DNA of 11,441 nucleotides from a virus: UHGV virus genome UHGV-0368337. The stretch is one strand, 5' to 3'. The position numbers and the translations under genes were made by a program. Position 1 is the stretch's first letter. Every line of letters starts with the position of its first letter. This document shows, one piece after another, positions 2,852-10,391 of the stretch. A model generated the notes under the pieces. It saw only the letters and a program-made list of their open reading frames with translations, was not told where the DNA came from and made no database searches.

Positions 2852-3559
2852 TTACCAGCTATGTGATGACCAGAACACTCGCCCTATGATTCTTACGTTT
2901 TTGTAGAATTCTTCTCTGTTCATTACTTCATCAGGATACTCTTCGCGGTTTATCGATCTGATAATTACCGATGTTGGCGTGGCTATGAGCGTTTTTACCC
3001 TTAACAAATCAGCTTGGCAAATTGCATATGTTTTACCATCCCTGATGCTCGTATCTCGCGTGTTTACCCCCACCACATCACCATCATGGAGTGTTGGCTC
3101 CATGCTTTGCCCAACAACCCTGACCAACTTTGCCGCTTTTTCTGGAACTCCCATTTTTTTCAGGTAATAGCGCCTAAAAACTAGAGAGAATTCTGCGGAC
3201 TCCTCCAATGCACAACTTCCTCCGCCAGCTGAAAGTGAAATATTTAGAAGGGGGAGCGCAACAAATTCTTCATTATCATTTTGATGATCATCCCAGGCGA
3301 TAGCTTTTAAAGATGATTCCCGAGCATTAGATGGCTCTTCTGCGCTCTGTGGTCTCATTGACCCTATACCAGAGCTTAGCCATTCAGGGCGAACTCTTAA
3401 CGCGTTGGCTAATTCGACCATTTTACGTGATCCGGTTGTTTTACCAGATGACATCTTTTGTATGGCTGGTTGTGATACCCCCACCATGTCTGCAAGTTGT
3501 GCTTGTGACAACCCGGCTGAACTCATGGCGGCATTTAGTCTTTCTGCGAATGTTTTCAT
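2852..3559 (-). CDS. cI: CI-type prophage repressor (N-terminal HTH, C-terminal S24/LexA-like autopeptidase)
   Basis: 235 aa. N-terminal HTH (LSQAQLADMVGVSQPAIQKM), Ala-Gly cleavage region (LSAGGG), catalytic serine motif GQSMEP and downstream lysine (RVK). Divergent from the cro-like gene with operators between them. Confidence 0.9.
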   Translation of the reverse strand: MKTFAERLNAAMSSAGLSQAQLADMVGVSQPAIQKMSSGKTTGSRKMVELANALRVRPEWLSSGIGSMRPQSAEEPSNARESSLKAIAWDDHQNDNEEFVALPLLNISLSAGGGSCALEESAEFSLVFRRYYLKKMGVPEKAAKLVRVVGQSMEPTLHDGDVVGVNTRDTSIRDGKTYAICQADLLRVKTLIATPTSVIIRSINREEYPDEVMNREEFYKNVRIIGRVFWSSHSW

Positions 3560-7563: not shown

Positions 7564-8148
7564 ATGACCACTTTTACAAAAGAGCAGTTAATCAGTCATG
7601 TTAGTGAAAATGTAAAGGCGATGAAATTTGCAGTAAAACAGACAGCATTCAAAAATTCTCTCGAGGCAATTGAGTTGGATTTAGCACTGGCCCTTGTTGC
7701 TCAGGCTTCGCTGGAAGCAGAGCCCGTGCTTTATATGAATCGATTTACCGGAAAGACATTCTCACTGGAAGAGCAACCCGGTGCTGATAAGGAACCGGAA
7801 ATATACGTGCCGCTATATGCTGCCCCGCCAGACAGCGCCGCCATGCTTCAGGCTGGAAACTTTCGGGAAAAGAAGGGTTCGTCAACCAATAATTTTCGGG
7901 AAATCTCGGAAACGTCAACCAACCATCCGGTAACTCTGGATGGTTGGATAAGCTGTAGTGAGCGAATGCCGGATGACGGTCAGCACGTAATTATTTTATG
8001 TGATGGCGCATTCGTTCTTTATGCGCAATATCGAGACGGTGAGTTTTTTGATGTAGTCCGTGATGGTGATGAATTTTTCGAAACACAGAGCCGCAATGTA
8101 ACCGACTGGATGCCGCTACCAGAACCGCCGCAGGAGGTGCGCCAATGA
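7564..8148 (+). CDS. Ead/Ea22-like protein with DUF551-type C-terminus
   Basis: ORF track 7504..8148; preferred start ATG at 7564 (AGGAG 6 nt upstream); GTG at 7504 is an alternative. C-terminus ...WISCSERMPDDGQ...VTDWMPLPEPP matches the DUF551 signature as I remember it. Internal 32-bp tandem repeat at 7861..7925. Confidence 0.7.
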   Translation: MTTFTKEQLISHVSENVKAMKFAVKQTAFKNSLEAIELDLALALVAQASLEAEPVLYMNRFTGKTFSLEEQPGADKEPEIYVPLYAAPPDSAAMLQAGNFREKKGSSTNNFREISETSTNHPVTLDGWISCSERMPDDGQHVIILCDGAFVLYAQYRDGEFFDVVRDGDEFFETQSRNVTDWMPLPEPPQEVRQ

Positions 8149-8228
8149 ACTGGCCTGAAGCATTTGCAATTACAGGCGTTGCTATGGCTATCACTTTTTT
8201 AGTATATGTTATTTGTCGGTGGGGGTAA
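8145..8228 (+). CDS. small hydrophobic peptide (27 aa), putative single-pass membrane peptide
   Basis: ATG at 8145 overlaps the upstream stop (ATGA) with AGGAGG 6 nt upstream. MNWPEAFAITGVAMAITFLVYVICRWG. Below the ORF-track size cutoff. Confidence 0.4.
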   Translation: MNWPEAFAITGVAMAITFLVYVICRWG

Positions 8229-8263
8229 AAACGTTCGCCGGGATTAACACCAAAGGAGGGAAT

Positions 8264-8368
8264 ATGTCGGATGATATATCACTGGCAATGGAAGGTGCGC
8301 TGGCTGTTATTGCTGTTGTGGGCGTTTACTGCCTGGTTGTGTTTTTGATGGATCGACTAGGGAACTGA
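8264..8368 (+). CDS. small hydrophobic peptide (34 aa), putative single-pass membrane peptide
   Basis: ATG at 8264 preceded by AAAGGAGGG. MSDDISLAMEGALAVIAVVGVYCLVVFLMDRLGN. Below the ORF-track size cutoff. Confidence 0.4.
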   Translation: MSDDISLAMEGALAVIAVVGVYCLVVFLMDRLGN

Positions 8369-8377
8369 ATTCATTAC

Positions 8378-8399
8378 GATATGGGAATTCCCATATCGG
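8378..8399. repeat. perfect 22-bp palindrome CGATATGGGAATTCCCATATCG
   Basis: Sequence equals its own reverse complement. Lies between the second small peptide ORF and the candidate hok promoter; not followed by a U-tract on either strand. Confidence 0.85.
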
Positions 8400-8410
8400 G
8401 TAAAAACGGT

Positions 8411-8438
8411 TTGCGGTAAAGCGAGAGTTAAGTAGAAT
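8411..8438 (+). promoter_or_regulatory. candidate sigma-70 promoter of the hok-type transcript
   Basis: TTGCGG (8411..8416), 16 nt, TAGAAT (8433..8438). Would give a leader of about 170 nt containing the hairpin CTGTCTGCC...GGCAGACAG (8459..8493), as expected for hok-family mRNAs. Confidence 0.4.
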
Positions 8439-8499
8439 TGCTGCGGGTGCTTGAGGCTGTCTGCCTCGGGCATGCCACCGTAAGGCAGACAGAGAAAAG

Positions 8500-8565
8500 C
8501 CCCAGTTAACATTACGCGTCCTGCAAGACGCCTAACATTAATCTGAGGCCAATTTCATGCTAGAC
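8500..8565 (-). ncRNA. candidate Sok-like antisense RNA (hypothetical)
   Basis: Minus-strand promoter-like TTGCCT (rc of 8595..8600), 17 nt, TAACCT (rc of 8572..8577). The transcript would be antisense to the SD and start of the upstream in-frame ORF at 8557 and contain hairpin 8515..8530. No clean U-tract terminator. Confidence 0.25.
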
Positions 8566-8613
8566 ACATGTAGGTTAGCCTCTTACGCGCCGAAAGGCAA
8601 GGAGAAGCAGGCT

Positions 8614-8769
8614 ATGAAGCAGCAAAAGGCGATGTTAGTCGCCCTGATCGTCATCTGTATTACCGTCATTGTGACGGCACTGGTAACGAGGAAAGACCTC
8701 TGCGAGGTACGAATCCGAACCGGCCAGACGGAGGTCACTGTCTTCACAGCTTACGAACCTGAGGAGTAA
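8614..8769 (+). CDS. hok: Hok/Gef-family type I toxin (51 aa membrane peptide)
   Basis: MKQQKAMLVALIVICITVIVTALVTRKDLCEVRIRTGQTEVTVFTAYEPEE shows the Hok/Gef signature (TM helix, TRK-LCE-R-G-EVA-F-AYE). AAGGCAAGGAGAAG RBS. ORF track 8557..8769 includes an in-frame upstream start with its own GAGG. Confidence 0.85.
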   Translation: MKQQKAMLVALIVICITVIVTALVTRKDLCEVRIRTGQTEVTVFTAYEPEE

Positions 8770-8837
8770 GAGACCAGGCGAGGGAGAAATCCCTCGCCAC
8801 CTCTGATGTGTCAGGCATCCTCAACGCACCCGCACTT

Positions 8838-8859
8838 AACCCGCTTCGGCGGGTTTTTT
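8838..8859 (+). terminator. rho-independent terminator of the hok transcript
   Basis: AACCCGC-TTCG-GCGGGTT followed by TTTT, preceded by the strong 3-prime hairpin GGCGAGGGA-GAAA-TCCCTCGCC (8777..8798). Confidence 0.75.
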
Positions 8860-8978
8860 CACGTACTGTGGTTGTGAATACGATCGGTATTAGGCTATGC
8901 TAACAACATTAGCCTGACTAATTTTGTATTGACTTGATTTTTGTTAAAGAACAGGACGGAGAAGTAAGGGTACACCCA

Positions 8979-9245
8979 ATGAGCTACGCACTAAAAAAAC
9001 ACCCGCGATTGACTATTCCCCCTCGCGATAAAAGCGTTGTGGCAGCTCCGCGCCCGGCTATCGATGAAAATTGCACTCATCGTGAGCAGGTGAAAAATGC
9101 TTTCGATTTCGGTTTTCTCGTTACGAGAAGGCAATGGAAGAACTTTCAAAAGTGTAATGATGGGTATTGTGCTCTATGGCTGAGATTGTTGAAGGAGTGC
9201 ACTACCTTTCGTTTGATGATCTTACCGAAATTAATCGCCTTTTAA
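8979..9245 (+). CDS. hypothetical protein (88 aa) upstream of and overlapping the doc-like gene; possible non-canonical antitoxin or spurious ORF
   Basis: ORF track 8934..9245; candidate start ATG at 8979 with a purine-rich GGAGAAGTAAGGG upstream. Overlaps the Doc-like ORF by 70 nt in another frame. No Phd/YefM-like or other recognisable signature. Confidence 0.3.
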   Translation: MSYALKKHPRLTIPPRDKSVVAAPRPAIDENCTHREQVKNAFDFGFLVTRRQWKNFQKCNDGYCALWLRLLKECTTFRLMILPKLIAF

Positions 9246-9661
9246 TTGAGCTTCAAACACCAGATGAACCTGTTAGTGTGCTGAGTGTTGATAATTTAAG
9301 TTCTTCTCAGTCTCGTCCCAGCATGGTTCGATGGTATGAACAGACTAATGACATGTTTGTACTGGCATCAGTATTGATTGAAAGTCTGATTCAGAATCAT
9401 CCATTTGCTAATGCAAACAAACGAACAGCTATGATGGCTGGTTATGTCTTCTTGTTGTTGAATGGCTATGAGTTAACAGCACCAGGCGATGAAATCGTGG
9501 AAATGGCAGAGGGACTGGCCTGCAAAACCTATACTCGAGAAGATCTCGAGAACTGGTTGTGTTATTGGTCTCGTGCGTATGACGGCCGGGAATTATGTAA
9601 AACAGGCGCAACTGTTGTTTTGTATGAAACTATCAAGCTTAAAATAGAACAGCAAAACTAA
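9176..9661 (+). CDS. doc: Doc-family (Fic-fold) toxin
   Basis: ORF track 9167..9661 (TTG); first ATG at 9176. Contains HPFANANKRTAMMAGYVFLLLNGY, matching the Doc signature HxFx(D/N)(A/G)NKR rather than the canonical Fic motif. Size is that of stand-alone Doc proteins. Confidence 0.8.
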   Translation: MAEIVEGVHYLSFDDLTEINRLLIELQTPDEPVSVLSVDNLSSSQSRPSMVRWYEQTNDMFVLASVLIESLIQNHPFANANKRTAMMAGYVFLLLNGYELTAPGDEIVEMAEGLACKTYTREDLENWLCYWSRAYDGRELCKTGATVVLYETIKLKIEQQN

Positions 9662-9675
9662 AGGTGCTTCTAATG

Positions 9676-9697
9676 AAAACCCGCTTCGGCGGGTTTT
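9676..9697. terminator. bidirectional rho-independent terminator between doc-like and higA-like genes
   Basis: AAAA-CCCGC-TTCG-GCGGG-TTTT, A-tract on one side and T-tract on the other, between convergent genes. The stem is identical to the hok terminator at 8838..8859. Confidence 0.7.
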
Positions 9698-9711
9698 GTT
9701 GTATTGGAGTA

Positions 9712-10029
9712 TCATGATATTACCTGGATTCCGTTTTTCTCTACGACTGAAAGAAGGCGAAGAGCGGCACCTCCCGGCCGTTTTACACCACGTTCCCAGT
9801 CTGATATCAGGTTTTTACTGACGTTGAGGTATCTGGCAAAAACAGGTTGAGACAGATGCTCTCGTTCGCGCAGTGCACGGATCCTTTCCGGAGACATTAC
9901 CGGCGCTGGCTGGAGACAAGTTTCATCGAATTCTCGCATAGTCTGTTTCGTTACTGCGCCGATATCATGAAGCGATTCCATCATTTCATGTACGGATGCA
10001 AGCGCATCACTGCGGTAATTTTTACTCAT
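9712..10029 (-). CDS. HigA-like HTH (XRE-family) antitoxin
   Basis: 105 aa; GGAGG 7 nt upstream of the ATG at 10029. C-terminal HTH LSQPVFARYLNVSKNLISDWERG. Directly downstream of the RelE/HigB-like toxin reading frame on the same strand, i.e. toxin-first order. Confidence 0.75.
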   Translation of the reverse strand: MSKNYRSDALASVHEMMESLHDIGAVTKQTMREFDETCLQPAPVMSPERIRALREREHLSQPVFARYLNVSKNLISDWERGVKRPGGAALRLLSVVEKNGIQVIS

Positions 10030-10083
10030 TGGGTACCTCCGTAAACTGACCCTGTAGAATCAGTTGTGCCAGTTGTTCATCTG

Positions 10084-10391
10084 TTAGATTGAGTACGTGA
10101 GGAGCCCCTTCCGAAATGCACTTTCCTCAGTAGCGGTTATATTTTCACGTTCATTTTTTGCGTATGCATATACGAAAAAGGCCCTTGTGCCGACGCGATA
10201 GAAAATGATTGTGCGATAACCGCCAGATTTGCCGCCACCGACTCGTGGCAGACGTTGCTTGATAACGCCGTTACCCAGGTTTGCTGAGATAAGCCCGTTA
10301 TCAGCCTGTTTAACAATTTCGCGCAGTGATTGGTCGGATATTTTGTTTTGCGTGCAAGTCGCTCAAACCAGGCGTTTTTAAAAATGCGCAT
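10084..10391 (-). pseudogene. RelE/HigB-like type II toxin gene interrupted by a -1 frameshift
   Basis: N-terminus MRIFKNAWFERLARKTK from the ATG at 10391. The rest, including the hallmark GGGKSGGYRTIIFYR, is in the -1 frame (...ISDQSLREIVKQADNGLISANLGNGVIKQRLPRVGGGKSGGYRTIIFYRVG...TYSI, stop 10086..10084). Adding one base to the homopolymer at 10341..10344 restores a 102-aa ORF. Confidence 0.6.

What the first reader, a model, noticed from the sequence alone, without database searches (positions are those of the whole stretch)
8145..8368. Two tandem mini-ORFs encoding hydrophobic peptides with strong ribosome-binding sites
A 27-aa and a 34-aa ORF, each with a near-consensus Shine-Dalgarno at correct spacing and each essentially a single transmembrane helix, follow the DUF551-like gene (the first overlapping its stop as ATGA). 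They are below standard gene-calling cutoffs. Small membrane peptides in this context are often toxins, exclusion factors or modulators of membrane proteins.
Basis: seen in the sequence. Interest (0 to 1): 0.45.

Follow-up and report, generated by a model that had tools for sequence, protein, structure and literature searches.

The report
Two conserved prophage mini membrane proteins
The two tiny genes are real: each belongs to a conserved family of one-helix membrane peptides in E. coli lambda-like prophages, usually just upstream of a hok/sok killer module; one is already annotated and seen on ribosomes, and what they do is unknown.

Summary
ORF1 (8145-8228, 27 aa) and ORF2 (8264-8368, 34 aa; the ATG is at 8264) are the only ORFs in the window that combine ATG, GGAGG, 20-50 codons and a hydrophobic helix. 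Shuffled sequence gives 0.007 per window.

Both are protein-coding families limited to Escherichia/Shigella lambdoid prophages. ORF1 ("M-x-WPEAF-x14-ICRWG") has about 37 peptide variants of nearly fixed length. In 209 of 209 intact copies its ATG overlaps the stop of the upstream gene as ATGA, behind at least 5 unrelated upstream genes. Changes by codon position are 39/34/99 (pN/pS 0.30).

ORF2 has a 47%-identical sister type in phages Tritos, HannyBb and mEp460. Both types sit just upstream of a hok promoter. ORF2 is already RefSeq WP_001278450.1 (ECs_5710 in Sakai). It was reported as translated (XECs145; ribosome coverage value 4.35 in LB) by Hücker et al. 2017. ORF1 is not annotated in the RefSeq records examined.

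ORF2 plus a 22-bp palindrome looks like a cassette inserted between ORF1 and the hok promoter.

No known family matches either peptide. Function is unknown. The most likely role is non-toxic single-pass membrane accessory peptides. A type I toxin role is unlikely. Interest is modest.

The parts
7564..8148 (+). DUF551-domain gene. Its TGA stop overlaps the ORF1 start (ATGA), and its last codons carry the ORF1 Shine-Dalgarno sequence.
   Evidence: Pfam PF04448, E 1.1e-20. PGAP names it a 'DUF551 domain-containing protein' in an identical genome.
8145..8228 (+). ORF1: a 27-aa single-helix peptide, MNWPEAFAITGVAMAITFLVYVICRWG. It belongs to the 'M-x-WPEAF-x14-ICRWG' family and is translationally coupled to the upstream gene.
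   Evidence: The family has 48 DNA variants and 37 peptide variants. ATGA overlap is present in 209/209 intact copies behind at least 5 unrelated upstream genes. Codon-position changes are 39/34/99, pN/pS 0.30. An in-frame 6-nt deletion allele exists. The 933W homologue is 65% identical at nt level, gapless, dN/dS 0.24.
8229..8263 (+). Highly conserved 35-nt spacer carrying the ORF2 Shine-Dalgarno sequence (AAGGAGG at 8253-8259). Its first 6 nt belong to the left copy of the GGGTAAAAACG direct repeat (8224-8234).
   Evidence: alignment A1.
8264..8368 (+). ORF2: a 34-aa single-helix peptide, MSDDISLAMEGALAVIAVVGVYCLVVFLMDRLGN. It equals RefSeq WP_001278450.1, ECs_5710, and XECs145.
   Evidence: PGAP annotation. 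Ribo-seq values: RPKM 346, RCV 4.35, coverage 0.99 in LB. Codon-position changes are 12/8/27, pN/pS 0.35. The ORF2b sister type is 47% identical over 34 aa with no gaps. AF2 models a helix at residues 3-33.
8377..8398 (.). Perfect 22-bp palindrome CGATATGGGAATTCCCATATCG (9-bp stem and AAUU loop as RNA, no U-tail). It travels with ORF2 here but is also found alone upstream of hok promoters.
   Evidence: repeat I4. (dG -22 kcal/mol, z -4.5). ('pal' only in 6 of 78 hok loci).
8399..8409 (+). Right copy of the direct repeat GGGTAAAAACG (left copy at 8224-8234). The two copies flank the ORF2-plus-palindrome cassette. Phage 933W has a single, similar copy (GAGATAAAAACG) between the ORF1 stop and the hok -35.
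   Evidence: Sequence. Comparison with 933W.
8411..8439 (+). Inferred hok mRNA promoter: -35 TTGCGG, 17-nt spacer, -10 TAGAAT. It bounds the mini-ORF region on the right.
   Evidence: Read from the sequence. Position is relative to the Rfam sok/hok match that starts at 8445. This part is inferred, not shown.
8445..8860 (+). Context: the hok/sok type I toxin-antitoxin locus. It comprises the hok mRNA leader with antisense sok, mok at 8557-8769, hok at 8614-8769, and a terminator.
   Evidence: Rfam RF01794, 116.9 bits. Pfam HOK_GEF, E 2.9e-22. PGAP names it 'hokD'.

Best explanation
ORF1 and ORF2 are two genuine, independently conserved small-protein genes of Escherichia/Shigella lambdoid prophages. 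Each encodes one transmembrane helix.

ORF1 (27 aa) is the last cistron of the early-gene block. Ribosomes that terminate on the upstream gene re-initiate at the overlapping ATGA, helped by an SD embedded in the upstream gene's last codons.

ORF2 (34 aa) is translated from its own strong SD. Together with the 22-bp palindrome it behaves as a cassette of about 175 bp inserted between the ORF1 stop and the hok promoter.

Shown: coding constraint for both ORFs, translation of ORF2, the genomic arrangement, and a lack of similarity to any curated family.

Inferred: both peptides insert into the inner membrane and act as non-lethal accessory peptides that bind a membrane protein or complex. Possible roles are modulating entry of a superinfecting phage or modulating membrane permeabilisation by Hok or holin. 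They are probably not autonomous toxins.

The confidence given (0.7) is for the whole statement. On its own, the claim that both are real coding genes for small membrane peptides rates about 0.9 (ORF2 about 0.95, ORF1 about 0.85). The claim that they are non-toxic modulators rates about 0.5.
For: Beyond chance: these are the only two such ORFs in the window, against 0.007 expected.

ORF1 coding evidence:
- There are 48 DNA variants and 37 peptide variants, almost all exactly 27 codons.
- Changes by codon position are 39/34/99, pN/pS 0.30. For codons not constrained by my search pattern, pN/pS is 0.40. The two other sense frames give pN/pS of 1.09 and 1.70.
- An in-frame 6-nt deletion allele exists.
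- The 933W copy is 65% identical at nt level, gapless, dN/dS 0.24.
- ATGA overlap occurs in 209/209 copies behind unrelated upstream C-termini. An SD-like core lies within 20 nt in 188 of 209 copies.

ORF2 coding evidence:
- Changes by codon position are 12/8/27, pN/pS 0.35. For ORF2b they are 2/4/13, pN/pS 0.16.
- All four Arg CGN codons are seen at one position.
- ORF2a and ORF2b are 47% identical over the full 34 aa with no gaps, E 1e-10.
- ORF2b is also placed just upstream of a hok promoter in isolated phages.
- PGAP annotates ORF2.
- Ribo-seq in Sakai: RNA RPKM 79, footprint RPKM 346, RCV 4.35, coverage 0.99 in LB (PMC5597208).

Other points:
- The mRNA is not unusually structured (z -0.74), so an RNA-structure role is not indicated.
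- ORF2 is modelled as a single helix.
- Against a toxin role: there is an exposed strong SD and coupling, antisense promoter-like sites are at chance level (3 found against 2.2 expected), and ORF2 is translated in healthy lysogens.
Against: - No functional data exist for either peptide, and no direct translation evidence exists for ORF1. The Sakai study excluded ORFs under 30 aa.
- Divergence is shallow because the families are confined to Escherichia/Shigella.
- Substitution counts come from minimum-spanning-tree edges, not from a phylogenetic model.
- Sequences were collected with motif filters that favour intact ORFs.
- The antisense frame that shares third positions also scores a low pN/pS.
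- Some copies are pseudogenes: L003 is frameshifted, and L197 and L220 have premature stops. The genes are therefore dispensable.
- The commonest O157 allele of ORF1 has an Asp in mid-helix.
- Membrane orientation is ambiguous because the flanking charges of ORF2a and ORF2b disagree.
- The Sakai Ribo-seq could come from a spontaneously induced subpopulation or from multi-mapped reads.
Confidence: 0.7

Rival explanations
1. One or both peptides are membrane-damaging toxins of the type I toxin-antitoxin or holin-like kind, kept in check by an antisense RNA or by low expression.
For: They are short, very hydrophobic single-helix peptides. They lie next to a bona fide hok/sok locus. Two promoter-like sites on the minus strand (8288 to 8261 and 8229 to 8201) could drive antisense RNAs across the ORF2 SD and ORF1.
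Against: There is no similarity to Hok/Gef or any other family. The antisense promoter-like sites are at chance frequency (3 found against 2.2 +/- 1.5 expected), and their hexamers are constrained by coding anyway. ORF1 is always translationally coupled to an ordinary upstream gene. The ORF2 SD is not sequestered in a notable structure. ORF2 is among the better-translated novel ORFs in normally growing Sakai (RCV 4.35). No Rfam antitoxin RNA matches across 8145-8368.
Confidence: 0.1
2. The peptides are functional partners of the phage Hok toxin, for example membrane-embedded modulators or immunity factors for Hok-assisted lysis. They would form a three-part module with hok/sok.
For: In 78 hok-anchored IMG/VR loci, 52 have an intact ORF1, ORF2a or ORF2b directly upstream of the hok promoter. 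About 78% of ORF1 copies have the hok promoter within 420 nt downstream. Two divergent ORF2 types both abut hok. hokW-sokW is reported to aid Sp5 release (PMC8621323), and Sp5/933W carries ORF1 directly upstream.
Against: About one third of phage-type hok loci lack all three ORFs. K-12 hokD has none. ORF1 also occurs followed by unrelated genes, and ORF2a occurs in L003 without hok. The mini-ORFs are in a different transcription unit from hok. Linkage can be explained by shared position in a mosaic region.
Confidence: 0.1
3. Only the act of translating ORF1 matters, not the peptide. It would be a coupling or spacer cistron that carries ribosomes to the end of the operon, for example to prevent Rho-dependent polarity or to set up ORF2 initiation.
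For: The ATGA overlap is universal behind many upstream genes. ORF1 is very short, and its stop lies in the A-rich stretch just upstream of the hok -35.
Against: The peptide sequence itself is constrained: pN/pS is 0.30-0.40, WPEAF and ICRW are retained, the length is fixed at 27 codons, and replacements are hydrophobic for hydrophobic. Part of the motif constancy is imposed by my search patterns.
Confidence: 0.07
4. The ORFs are not functional genes. They look conserved only because the prophage copies share recent ancestry, or because the DNA serves another role such as upstream elements of the hok promoter.
For: Most copies are more than 95% identical. The families have a narrow host range. 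Occasional pseudogenes exist.
Against: Substitutions show a third-position excess in the ORF frame only, apart from the antisense frame that shares third positions. Homologues at 63-65% nt identity keep frame and length. Indels are in frame. SD and start are retained in unrelated contexts. Ribosome footprints cover ORF2.
Confidence: 0.04

Closest known systems
Unannotated small ORFs found by ribosome profiling in EHEC (XECs145 of Hücker et al. 2017, PLoS One 12:e0184119; now ECs_5710 / WP_001278450.1)
   Same: ORF2 is this very protein. The XECs145 sequence contains the full 34-aa peptide, and its Sakai coordinates match ECs_5710 in prophage Sp6 after the version offset.
   Different: The paper chose the farthest-upstream rare start (ATA), which adds 20 spurious residues, so it found no SD. 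It did not consider ORF1 because of its 30-aa minimum. It did not describe the family, the hok synteny or the ORF2b type.
Hok/Gef type I toxins (Pfam PF01848), including hokW-sokW of phage 933W/Sp5
   Same: These are small single-pass inner-membrane peptides encoded in the same prophage region. The window's own hok lies 246 nt downstream of the ORF2 stop codon (hok ATG at 8614).
   Different: No sequence similarity was found. The mini-ORFs have no mok-type overlapping reading frame. They have no long folded leader and no sok-like antisense RNA. They are half the length of Hok and lack Hok's periplasmic Cys-containing tail.
Small single-helix membrane regulators of E. coli, such as KdpF, AcrZ, MgtS, CydX and the OadG-related small subunit
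   Same: They are similar in size (27-50 aa), have one hydrophobic helix and few charges, are non-toxic, and are translated in growing cells. This comparison rests on my own knowledge of those proteins. The only tool results are weak sub-threshold hits: NF040909 OadG_rel_small, E 0.022, for ORF1, and SecE, E 0.069, for ORF2.
   Different: No significant homology was found. The mini-ORFs are encoded in a prophage accessory region rather than next to the gene of a partner membrane complex. The partner is unknown.
Prophage 'moron' or superinfection-exclusion membrane proteins, such as HK97 gp15 and T4 Imm (from my own knowledge)
   Same: These are prophage-encoded small membrane proteins expressed in the lysogen. 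ORF2 plus the palindrome is a discrete inserted cassette, as morons are.
   Different: No homology was found. No own promoter or terminator was demonstrated for the cassette. No exclusion phenotype has been tested.

Membership tests
Hok/Gef toxin family (PF01848) | Sequence match to the HOK_GEF profile. | tested here: not met
   Neither ORF1 nor ORF2 hits the profile at E <= 1, while the neighbouring mok/hok scores E 2.9e-22. BLASTP of ORF2 against the window's Hok gives no alignment.
Type I toxin-antitoxin system (generic) | A cis- or trans-encoded antisense RNA antitoxin that overlaps or pairs with the toxin mRNA. | tested here: inconclusive
   Two minus-strand promoter-like sites overlap the ORFs, but the count is at chance level (3 found against 2.2 expected). 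No Rfam family matches 8145-8368 on either strand. No transcript data were examined.
Type I toxin-antitoxin system (generic) | Toxin translation held off by mRNA structure, not freely initiated. | tested here: not met
   ORF1 has AGGAGG 7 nt and ORF2 has AAGGAGG 4 nt upstream of the start, and ORF1 is coupled through ATGA. The region folds no better than shuffles (z -0.74). ORF2 has a high ribosome load in unstressed cells.
Type I toxin-antitoxin system (generic) | The peptide is toxic when expressed. | not testable with these tools
   This needs inducible expression.
Bona fide small protein-coding gene | Purifying selection at codon level, with frame and length preserved among diverged homologues. 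| tested here: met
   Codon-position changes are 39/34/99 for ORF1, 12/8/27 for ORF2a and 2/4/13 for ORF2b, with pN/pS of 0.30, 0.35 and 0.16. Homologues at 63-65% nt identity are gapless. An in-frame indel exists.
Bona fide small protein-coding gene | Direct evidence of translation. | tested here: met
   Met for ORF2 only, from published Ribo-seq (XECs145). ORF1 was not assayed because the study used a 30-aa cutoff. The 0.99 coverage of a 162-nt interval that includes the last 22 nt of ORF1 is only suggestive.
Curated protein families (Pfam, NCBIfam, PHROGs, PADLOC, PDB sequences) | A significant profile or sequence match. | tested here: not met
   Only sub-threshold hits were found. There were no PDB hits at E <= 10.
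Phage moron (independently expressed accessory cassette) | An own promoter and terminator flanking the gene, with expression from the repressed prophage. | tested here: inconclusive
   The cassette-like insertion with an 11-bp direct repeat is seen, and ORF2 is expressed in a lysogen culture. No plus-strand promoter was found, and the hairpin has no U-tail.

The most novel reading that the evidence does not exclude
ORF1 and the ORF2a/ORF2b peptides are dedicated membrane partners of phage-borne Hok. They would tune Hok insertion or oligomerisation during prophage induction. The 'hok/sok' loci of lambdoid phages would then be three- or four-component membrane-lysis modules rather than simple two-part type I toxin-antitoxin systems.
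Probability: 0.1. Interest if true: 0.65.

Novelty: new member of a known kind. Interest (0 to 1): 0.33.

Why it matters
ORF1 defines a 27-aa peptide family that none of the RefSeq records examined here annotates. A region match covering both mini-ORFs is present in about 12% of complete E. coli genomes, including O157:H7 and O104:H4 prophages, and ORF1 homologues also occur in Stx phages such as 933W.

ORF2 is a translated hypothetical protein with no assigned role. Both sit immediately beside the hokW/hokD-type toxin-antitoxin modules, which are reported to influence Stx-phage release (PMC8621323). Deletion constructs and interpretations of the 'hok/sok locus' should therefore take them into account.

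The universal ATGA coupling behind unrelated genes gives a clean natural example of how a mini-cistron is carried through phage mosaic recombination. Beyond that, these are ordinary examples of the many small prophage membrane proteins of unknown function.

Tried and rejected
- The search for related loci with the ORF2 alignment on genome contigs matched 62 stretches, but none passed its tblastn filter because the query is too short. I replaced it with degenerate DNA pattern scans.
- The representative-protein search (1.84 billion proteins) found only near-identical E. coli copies of ORF2. It did not reach ORF2b, which tblastn on phage genomes found.
- A padded ORF1 query found only 7 stray E. 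coli calls.
- Pfam, NCBIfam, PHROGs, PADLOC and PDB gave nothing significant.
- ORF1 and ORF2 as paralogues: rejected, no alignment.
- ORF2 as a degenerate Hok: rejected.
- The region as a structured ncRNA: rejected (z -0.74; no Rfam hit).
- The palindrome as an intrinsic terminator: rejected because it has no U-tail on either strand.
- K-12 hokD as a reference locus: it lacks the mini-ORFs.
- The peptides were not found in the supplements of the EDL933 translatome paper or in any main text.
- The CFT073 small-proteome preprint could not be opened.
- Membrane orientation from the positive-inside rule: abandoned because ORF2a and ORF2b give opposite predictions.
Full report
**Setting.** The window is the early-right region of an E. 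coli lambdoid prophage. In order it carries:
- a CI-like repressor (2852-3559, minus strand; Peptidase_S24 plus HTH);
- cro-like and cII-like ORFs, an O-like gene, a DnaC-like ATPase, and DUF1627, DUF977 and DUF551 genes;
- the two mini-ORFs;
- a hok/sok type I toxin-antitoxin locus (Rfam RF01794, 116.9 bits, at 8445-8619; Pfam HOK_GEF, E 2.9e-22, for mok/hok at 8557-8769).

The 7900-8800 stretch is 100% identical to E. coli AST198. It is 99.2% identical to the O104:H4 outbreak strains.

**Observation.** ORF1 runs 8145-8228 (27 aa) and ORF2 runs 8264-8368 (34 aa). The ORF2 ATG is at 8264.
- The ORF1 ATG overlaps the DUF551 stop as ATGA, and AGGAGG ends 7 nt upstream.
- ORF2 has AAGGAGG ending 4 nt upstream.
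- Both peptides are dominated by a hydrophobic stretch: the best 19-residue hydropathy is 2.32 for ORF1 and 2.72 for ORF2.
- AlphaFold2 models ORF2 as one helix, residues 3-33, pLDDT 90.6.

I scanned both strands of the 11.4-kb window for ATG starts with GGAGG 4-14 nt upstream, 20-50 codons and a strongly hydrophobic 17-mer. Exactly these two ORFs pass. Three hundred dinucleotide shuffles give a mean of 0.007 per window and never give two.

**Are they genes? ORF2.**
- PGAP already annotates ORF2 as a hypothetical protein. It is WP_001278450.1 in AST198 and ECs_5710 in prophage Sp6 of O157:H7 Sakai.
- The exact peptide is recorded on about 1000 contigs, always as 'hypothetical'.
- Hücker et al. 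2017 (PMC5597208) list it as XECs145 among 465 intergenic ORFs with ribosome footprints.
  - In LB: RNA RPKM 79.1, footprint RPKM 346.1, ribosome coverage value 4.35, coverage 0.99.
  - In BHI: 121.3, 150.1 and 1.14.
  - Under combined stress the values collapse.
- Their ORF carries 20 extra N-terminal residues because they took the farthest-upstream rare start codon. The SD-preceded ATG at 8264 is the evident start.
- Among 19 distinct DNA alleles, changes fall 12/8/27 on codon positions 1/2/3, pN/pS 0.35. Leaving out the codons fixed by my search pattern gives 0.29. The other sense frames give 0.59 and 1.52.
- One Arg codon is seen as CGA, CGG, CGC and CGT.
- A GTG-start allele exists.

**A sister type of ORF2.** tblastn on isolated phage genomes found a 44-50% identical peptide in phages Tritos, Evi, mEp460 and HannyBb.
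- The sequence is (MQEVV)VLVLKCALAIAAVMAIYCLAVVLMDRLSD. It has its own AGGAGG and a GTG start.
- It again lies directly upstream of the hok promoter.
- It aligns with ORF2 over all 34 residues without gaps: 47% identity, pairwise E 1e-10.
- Its own alleles show changes of 2/4/13 by codon position, pN/pS 0.16.

I call the window type ORF2a and this type ORF2b.

**Are they genes? ORF1.** None of the RefSeq (PGAP) records examined here annotates ORF1. Only 7 stray database calls exist. The evidence that it is a gene family is as follows.
- Phage 933W carries MTWPEAFANVGTVMAVVLVVYSICRWR, also 27 aa. It overlaps the stop of an unrelated upstream gene (L0139) as ATGA and sits directly upstream of the hokW promoter, with no ORF2.
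- Pattern scans of IMG/VR gave 48 DNA variants and 37 peptide variants, nearly all exactly 27 codons. The consensus is M-x-WPEAF-x14-ICRW-G.
- Changes fall 39/34/99 by codon position, pN/pS 0.30. For the 14 codons not constrained by the pattern it is 0.40. The other sense frames give 1.09 and 1.70.
- The window and 933W copies are only 65% identical at DNA level. They are gapless with dN/dS about 0.24.
- One allele has an in-frame 6-nt deletion.
- All 209 intact copies keep the ATGA overlap. The upstream genes have at least five unrelated C-termini: several DUF551 bodies, L0139-type, ea22-like and others. An SD-like core lies within 20 nt in 188 of 209 copies.

That a start, an SD and a frame are maintained through so many recombinant junctions argues for selection on translation of this cistron. 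Translation of ORF1 itself has not been measured, because the Sakai study excluded ORFs under 30 aa.

**Caveats.**
- Divergence is shallow and the families are narrow. A degenerate ORF1 pattern found true copies only in E. coli, Shigella flexneri and an Escherichia sp. among 185,579 species genomes. It also hit three tiny contigs that are probably contamination, plus 6 chance hits.
- ORF2 has only near-identical relatives among 1.84 billion representative proteins.
- My counts use minimum-spanning-tree edges, not a phylogenetic model.
- Motif filters favour intact copies.
- The antisense frame that shares third positions also scores low.
- Pseudogenes exist: L003 is frameshifted, and L197 and L220 have premature stops. 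The genes are dispensable.

**Architecture.** In an unbiased sample of 78 IMG/VR loci anchored on the hok promoter/leader 25-mer:

| What lies upstream of hok | Loci |
|---|---|
| ORF1 + ORF2a (20 of them with the palindrome) | 21 |
| ORF1 only | 14 |
| ORF2b only | 14 |
| ORF1 + ORF2b | 1 |
| ORF2a + palindrome, no ORF1 | 2 |
| Palindrome only | 6 |
| None by motif | 20 |

The 'none by motif' class includes about 4 ORF1 variants or pseudogenes and 2 ORF2b remnants.
- About 78% of ORF1 copies have the hok promoter within 420 nt. The rest are followed by other small early genes.
- ORF2a occurs once without hok (L003).
- K-12 hokD has no mini-ORFs.

Comparison with 933W suggests that ORF2a arrived as an insertion.
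- In 933W the ORF1 stop is followed at once by ...GATAAAAACGGTTTGCGG, which contains the hok -35.
- In the window, GGGTAAAAACG occurs twice, at 8224-8234 and 8399-8409, bracketing ORF2 plus the 22-bp palindrome at 8377-8398.
- ORF2a with the palindrome therefore looks like an inserted cassette of about 175 bp.

The palindrome folds as a strong hairpin (-22 kcal/mol, z -4.5) but has no U-tail. It also occurs upstream of hok after unrelated genes. Its role is unexplained.

**What they are not.** No significant match was found in Pfam, NCBIfam, PHROGs, PADLOC or PDB sequences.
- ORF1 and ORF2 are not similar to each other.
- ORF2 shows no alignment to the window's Hok, and neither ORF hits the HOK_GEF profile.
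- The RNA is not unusually structured (z -0.74), and no Rfam family covers it.

**Mechanism.**
- Shown: both ORFs are under coding constraint, ORF2 is translated in a growing lysogen culture, and both peptides are single hydrophobic helices.
- Inferred: ORF1 is made by termination-reinitiation coupling at ATGA. ORF2 is made from its own SD on the same early transcript, or on an unidentified lysogenic transcript.

I consider a non-lethal accessory role most likely. That would be a small membrane peptide binding a membrane protein or complex, for example in exclusion of superinfecting phage or in tuning Hok or holin action. Three points support this over a toxin role:
- Expression is unguarded: the SD is exposed, ORF1 is coupled, and no antitoxin was detected.
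- Antisense promoter-like sites are at chance level.
- ORF2 carries a high ribosome load in healthy cells.

The partnership-with-Hok idea is attractive because of the synteny, but the synteny is incomplete. Orientation in the membrane cannot be inferred, because the flanking charges of ORF2a and ORF2b disagree.

**Verdict.** This is a correct observation of two real mini-genes. ORF2 is already known as an annotated, Ribo-seq-supported hypothetical protein. ORF1 is an essentially unannotated 27-aa family. Their kind, small prophage membrane proteins of unknown function, is familiar. Interest is modest. It would rise if a link to Hok function were shown.

Noticed in passing
window 8377-8398: A perfect 22-bp palindrome, CGATATGGGAATTCCCATATCG, with an EcoRI site at its centre. 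As RNA it forms a strong hairpin (-22 kcal/mol, z -4.5) without a U-tail. It recurs just upstream of phage-type hok promoters, even after unrelated genes and without the mini-ORFs. It could be a protein-binding site, an RNA 3'-end or processing hairpin, or a recombination junction.
   Followed up: partly
window 8224-8234 and 8399-8409: An 11-bp direct repeat, GGGTAAAAACG, brackets ORF2 plus the palindrome. Phage 933W has a single, similar copy (GAGATAAAAACG) between the ORF1 stop and the hok -35. This suggests a cassette insertion or a recombination at short homology.
   Followed up: partly
window 8445-10300: Three toxin-antitoxin modules lie in a row. The first is hok/sok (type I, 8445-8860). 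The second is a small ORF plus a Fic/Doc-family toxin (8979-9661; Pfam Fic, E 3e-11). The third, on the minus strand, is an HTH antitoxin (9712-10029) with a RelE/ParE-like toxin (about 10085-10291; PGAP name in the identical strain).
   Followed up: partly
window about 9113 (T-run in 8979-9245): The window has a 1-nt deletion (T5 to T4) relative to strain AST198. The deletion shifts the frame of the 59-aa ORF upstream of doc, the presumed antitoxin, which then reads through to 9245 and overlaps doc. This is either a frameshifted antitoxin or a sequencing error.
   Followed up: partly
window 8778-8859: A weak Rfam hit to isrK (31 bits, below the gathering score of 50) falls on the hok mRNA 3' end and terminator region. 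It probably reflects a shared terminator-like structure.
   Followed up: no
L006 1505-1588 and many IMG/VR loci (O157-type allele of ORF1): The commonest ORF1 allele in O157-type prophages, MIWPEAFAITGVAIAIDFLVYVICRWG, has an Asp in the middle of the hydrophobic helix. Other alleles have Thr, Ala or Val at that position.
   Followed up: no
L181 and L183, just upstream of the hok promoter: Deletion remnants of ORF2b keep only the last codons (..MDHLSD*) fused after an unrelated gene. Modules in this junction are frequently cut and rejoined.
   Followed up: no
window 8288-8261 and 8229-8201 (minus strand): Two sigma-70-like promoter matches lie antisense to the ORF2 start and the ORF1 3' end. 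Their count is at chance level. They would matter only if an antisense RNA were detected.
   Followed up: no
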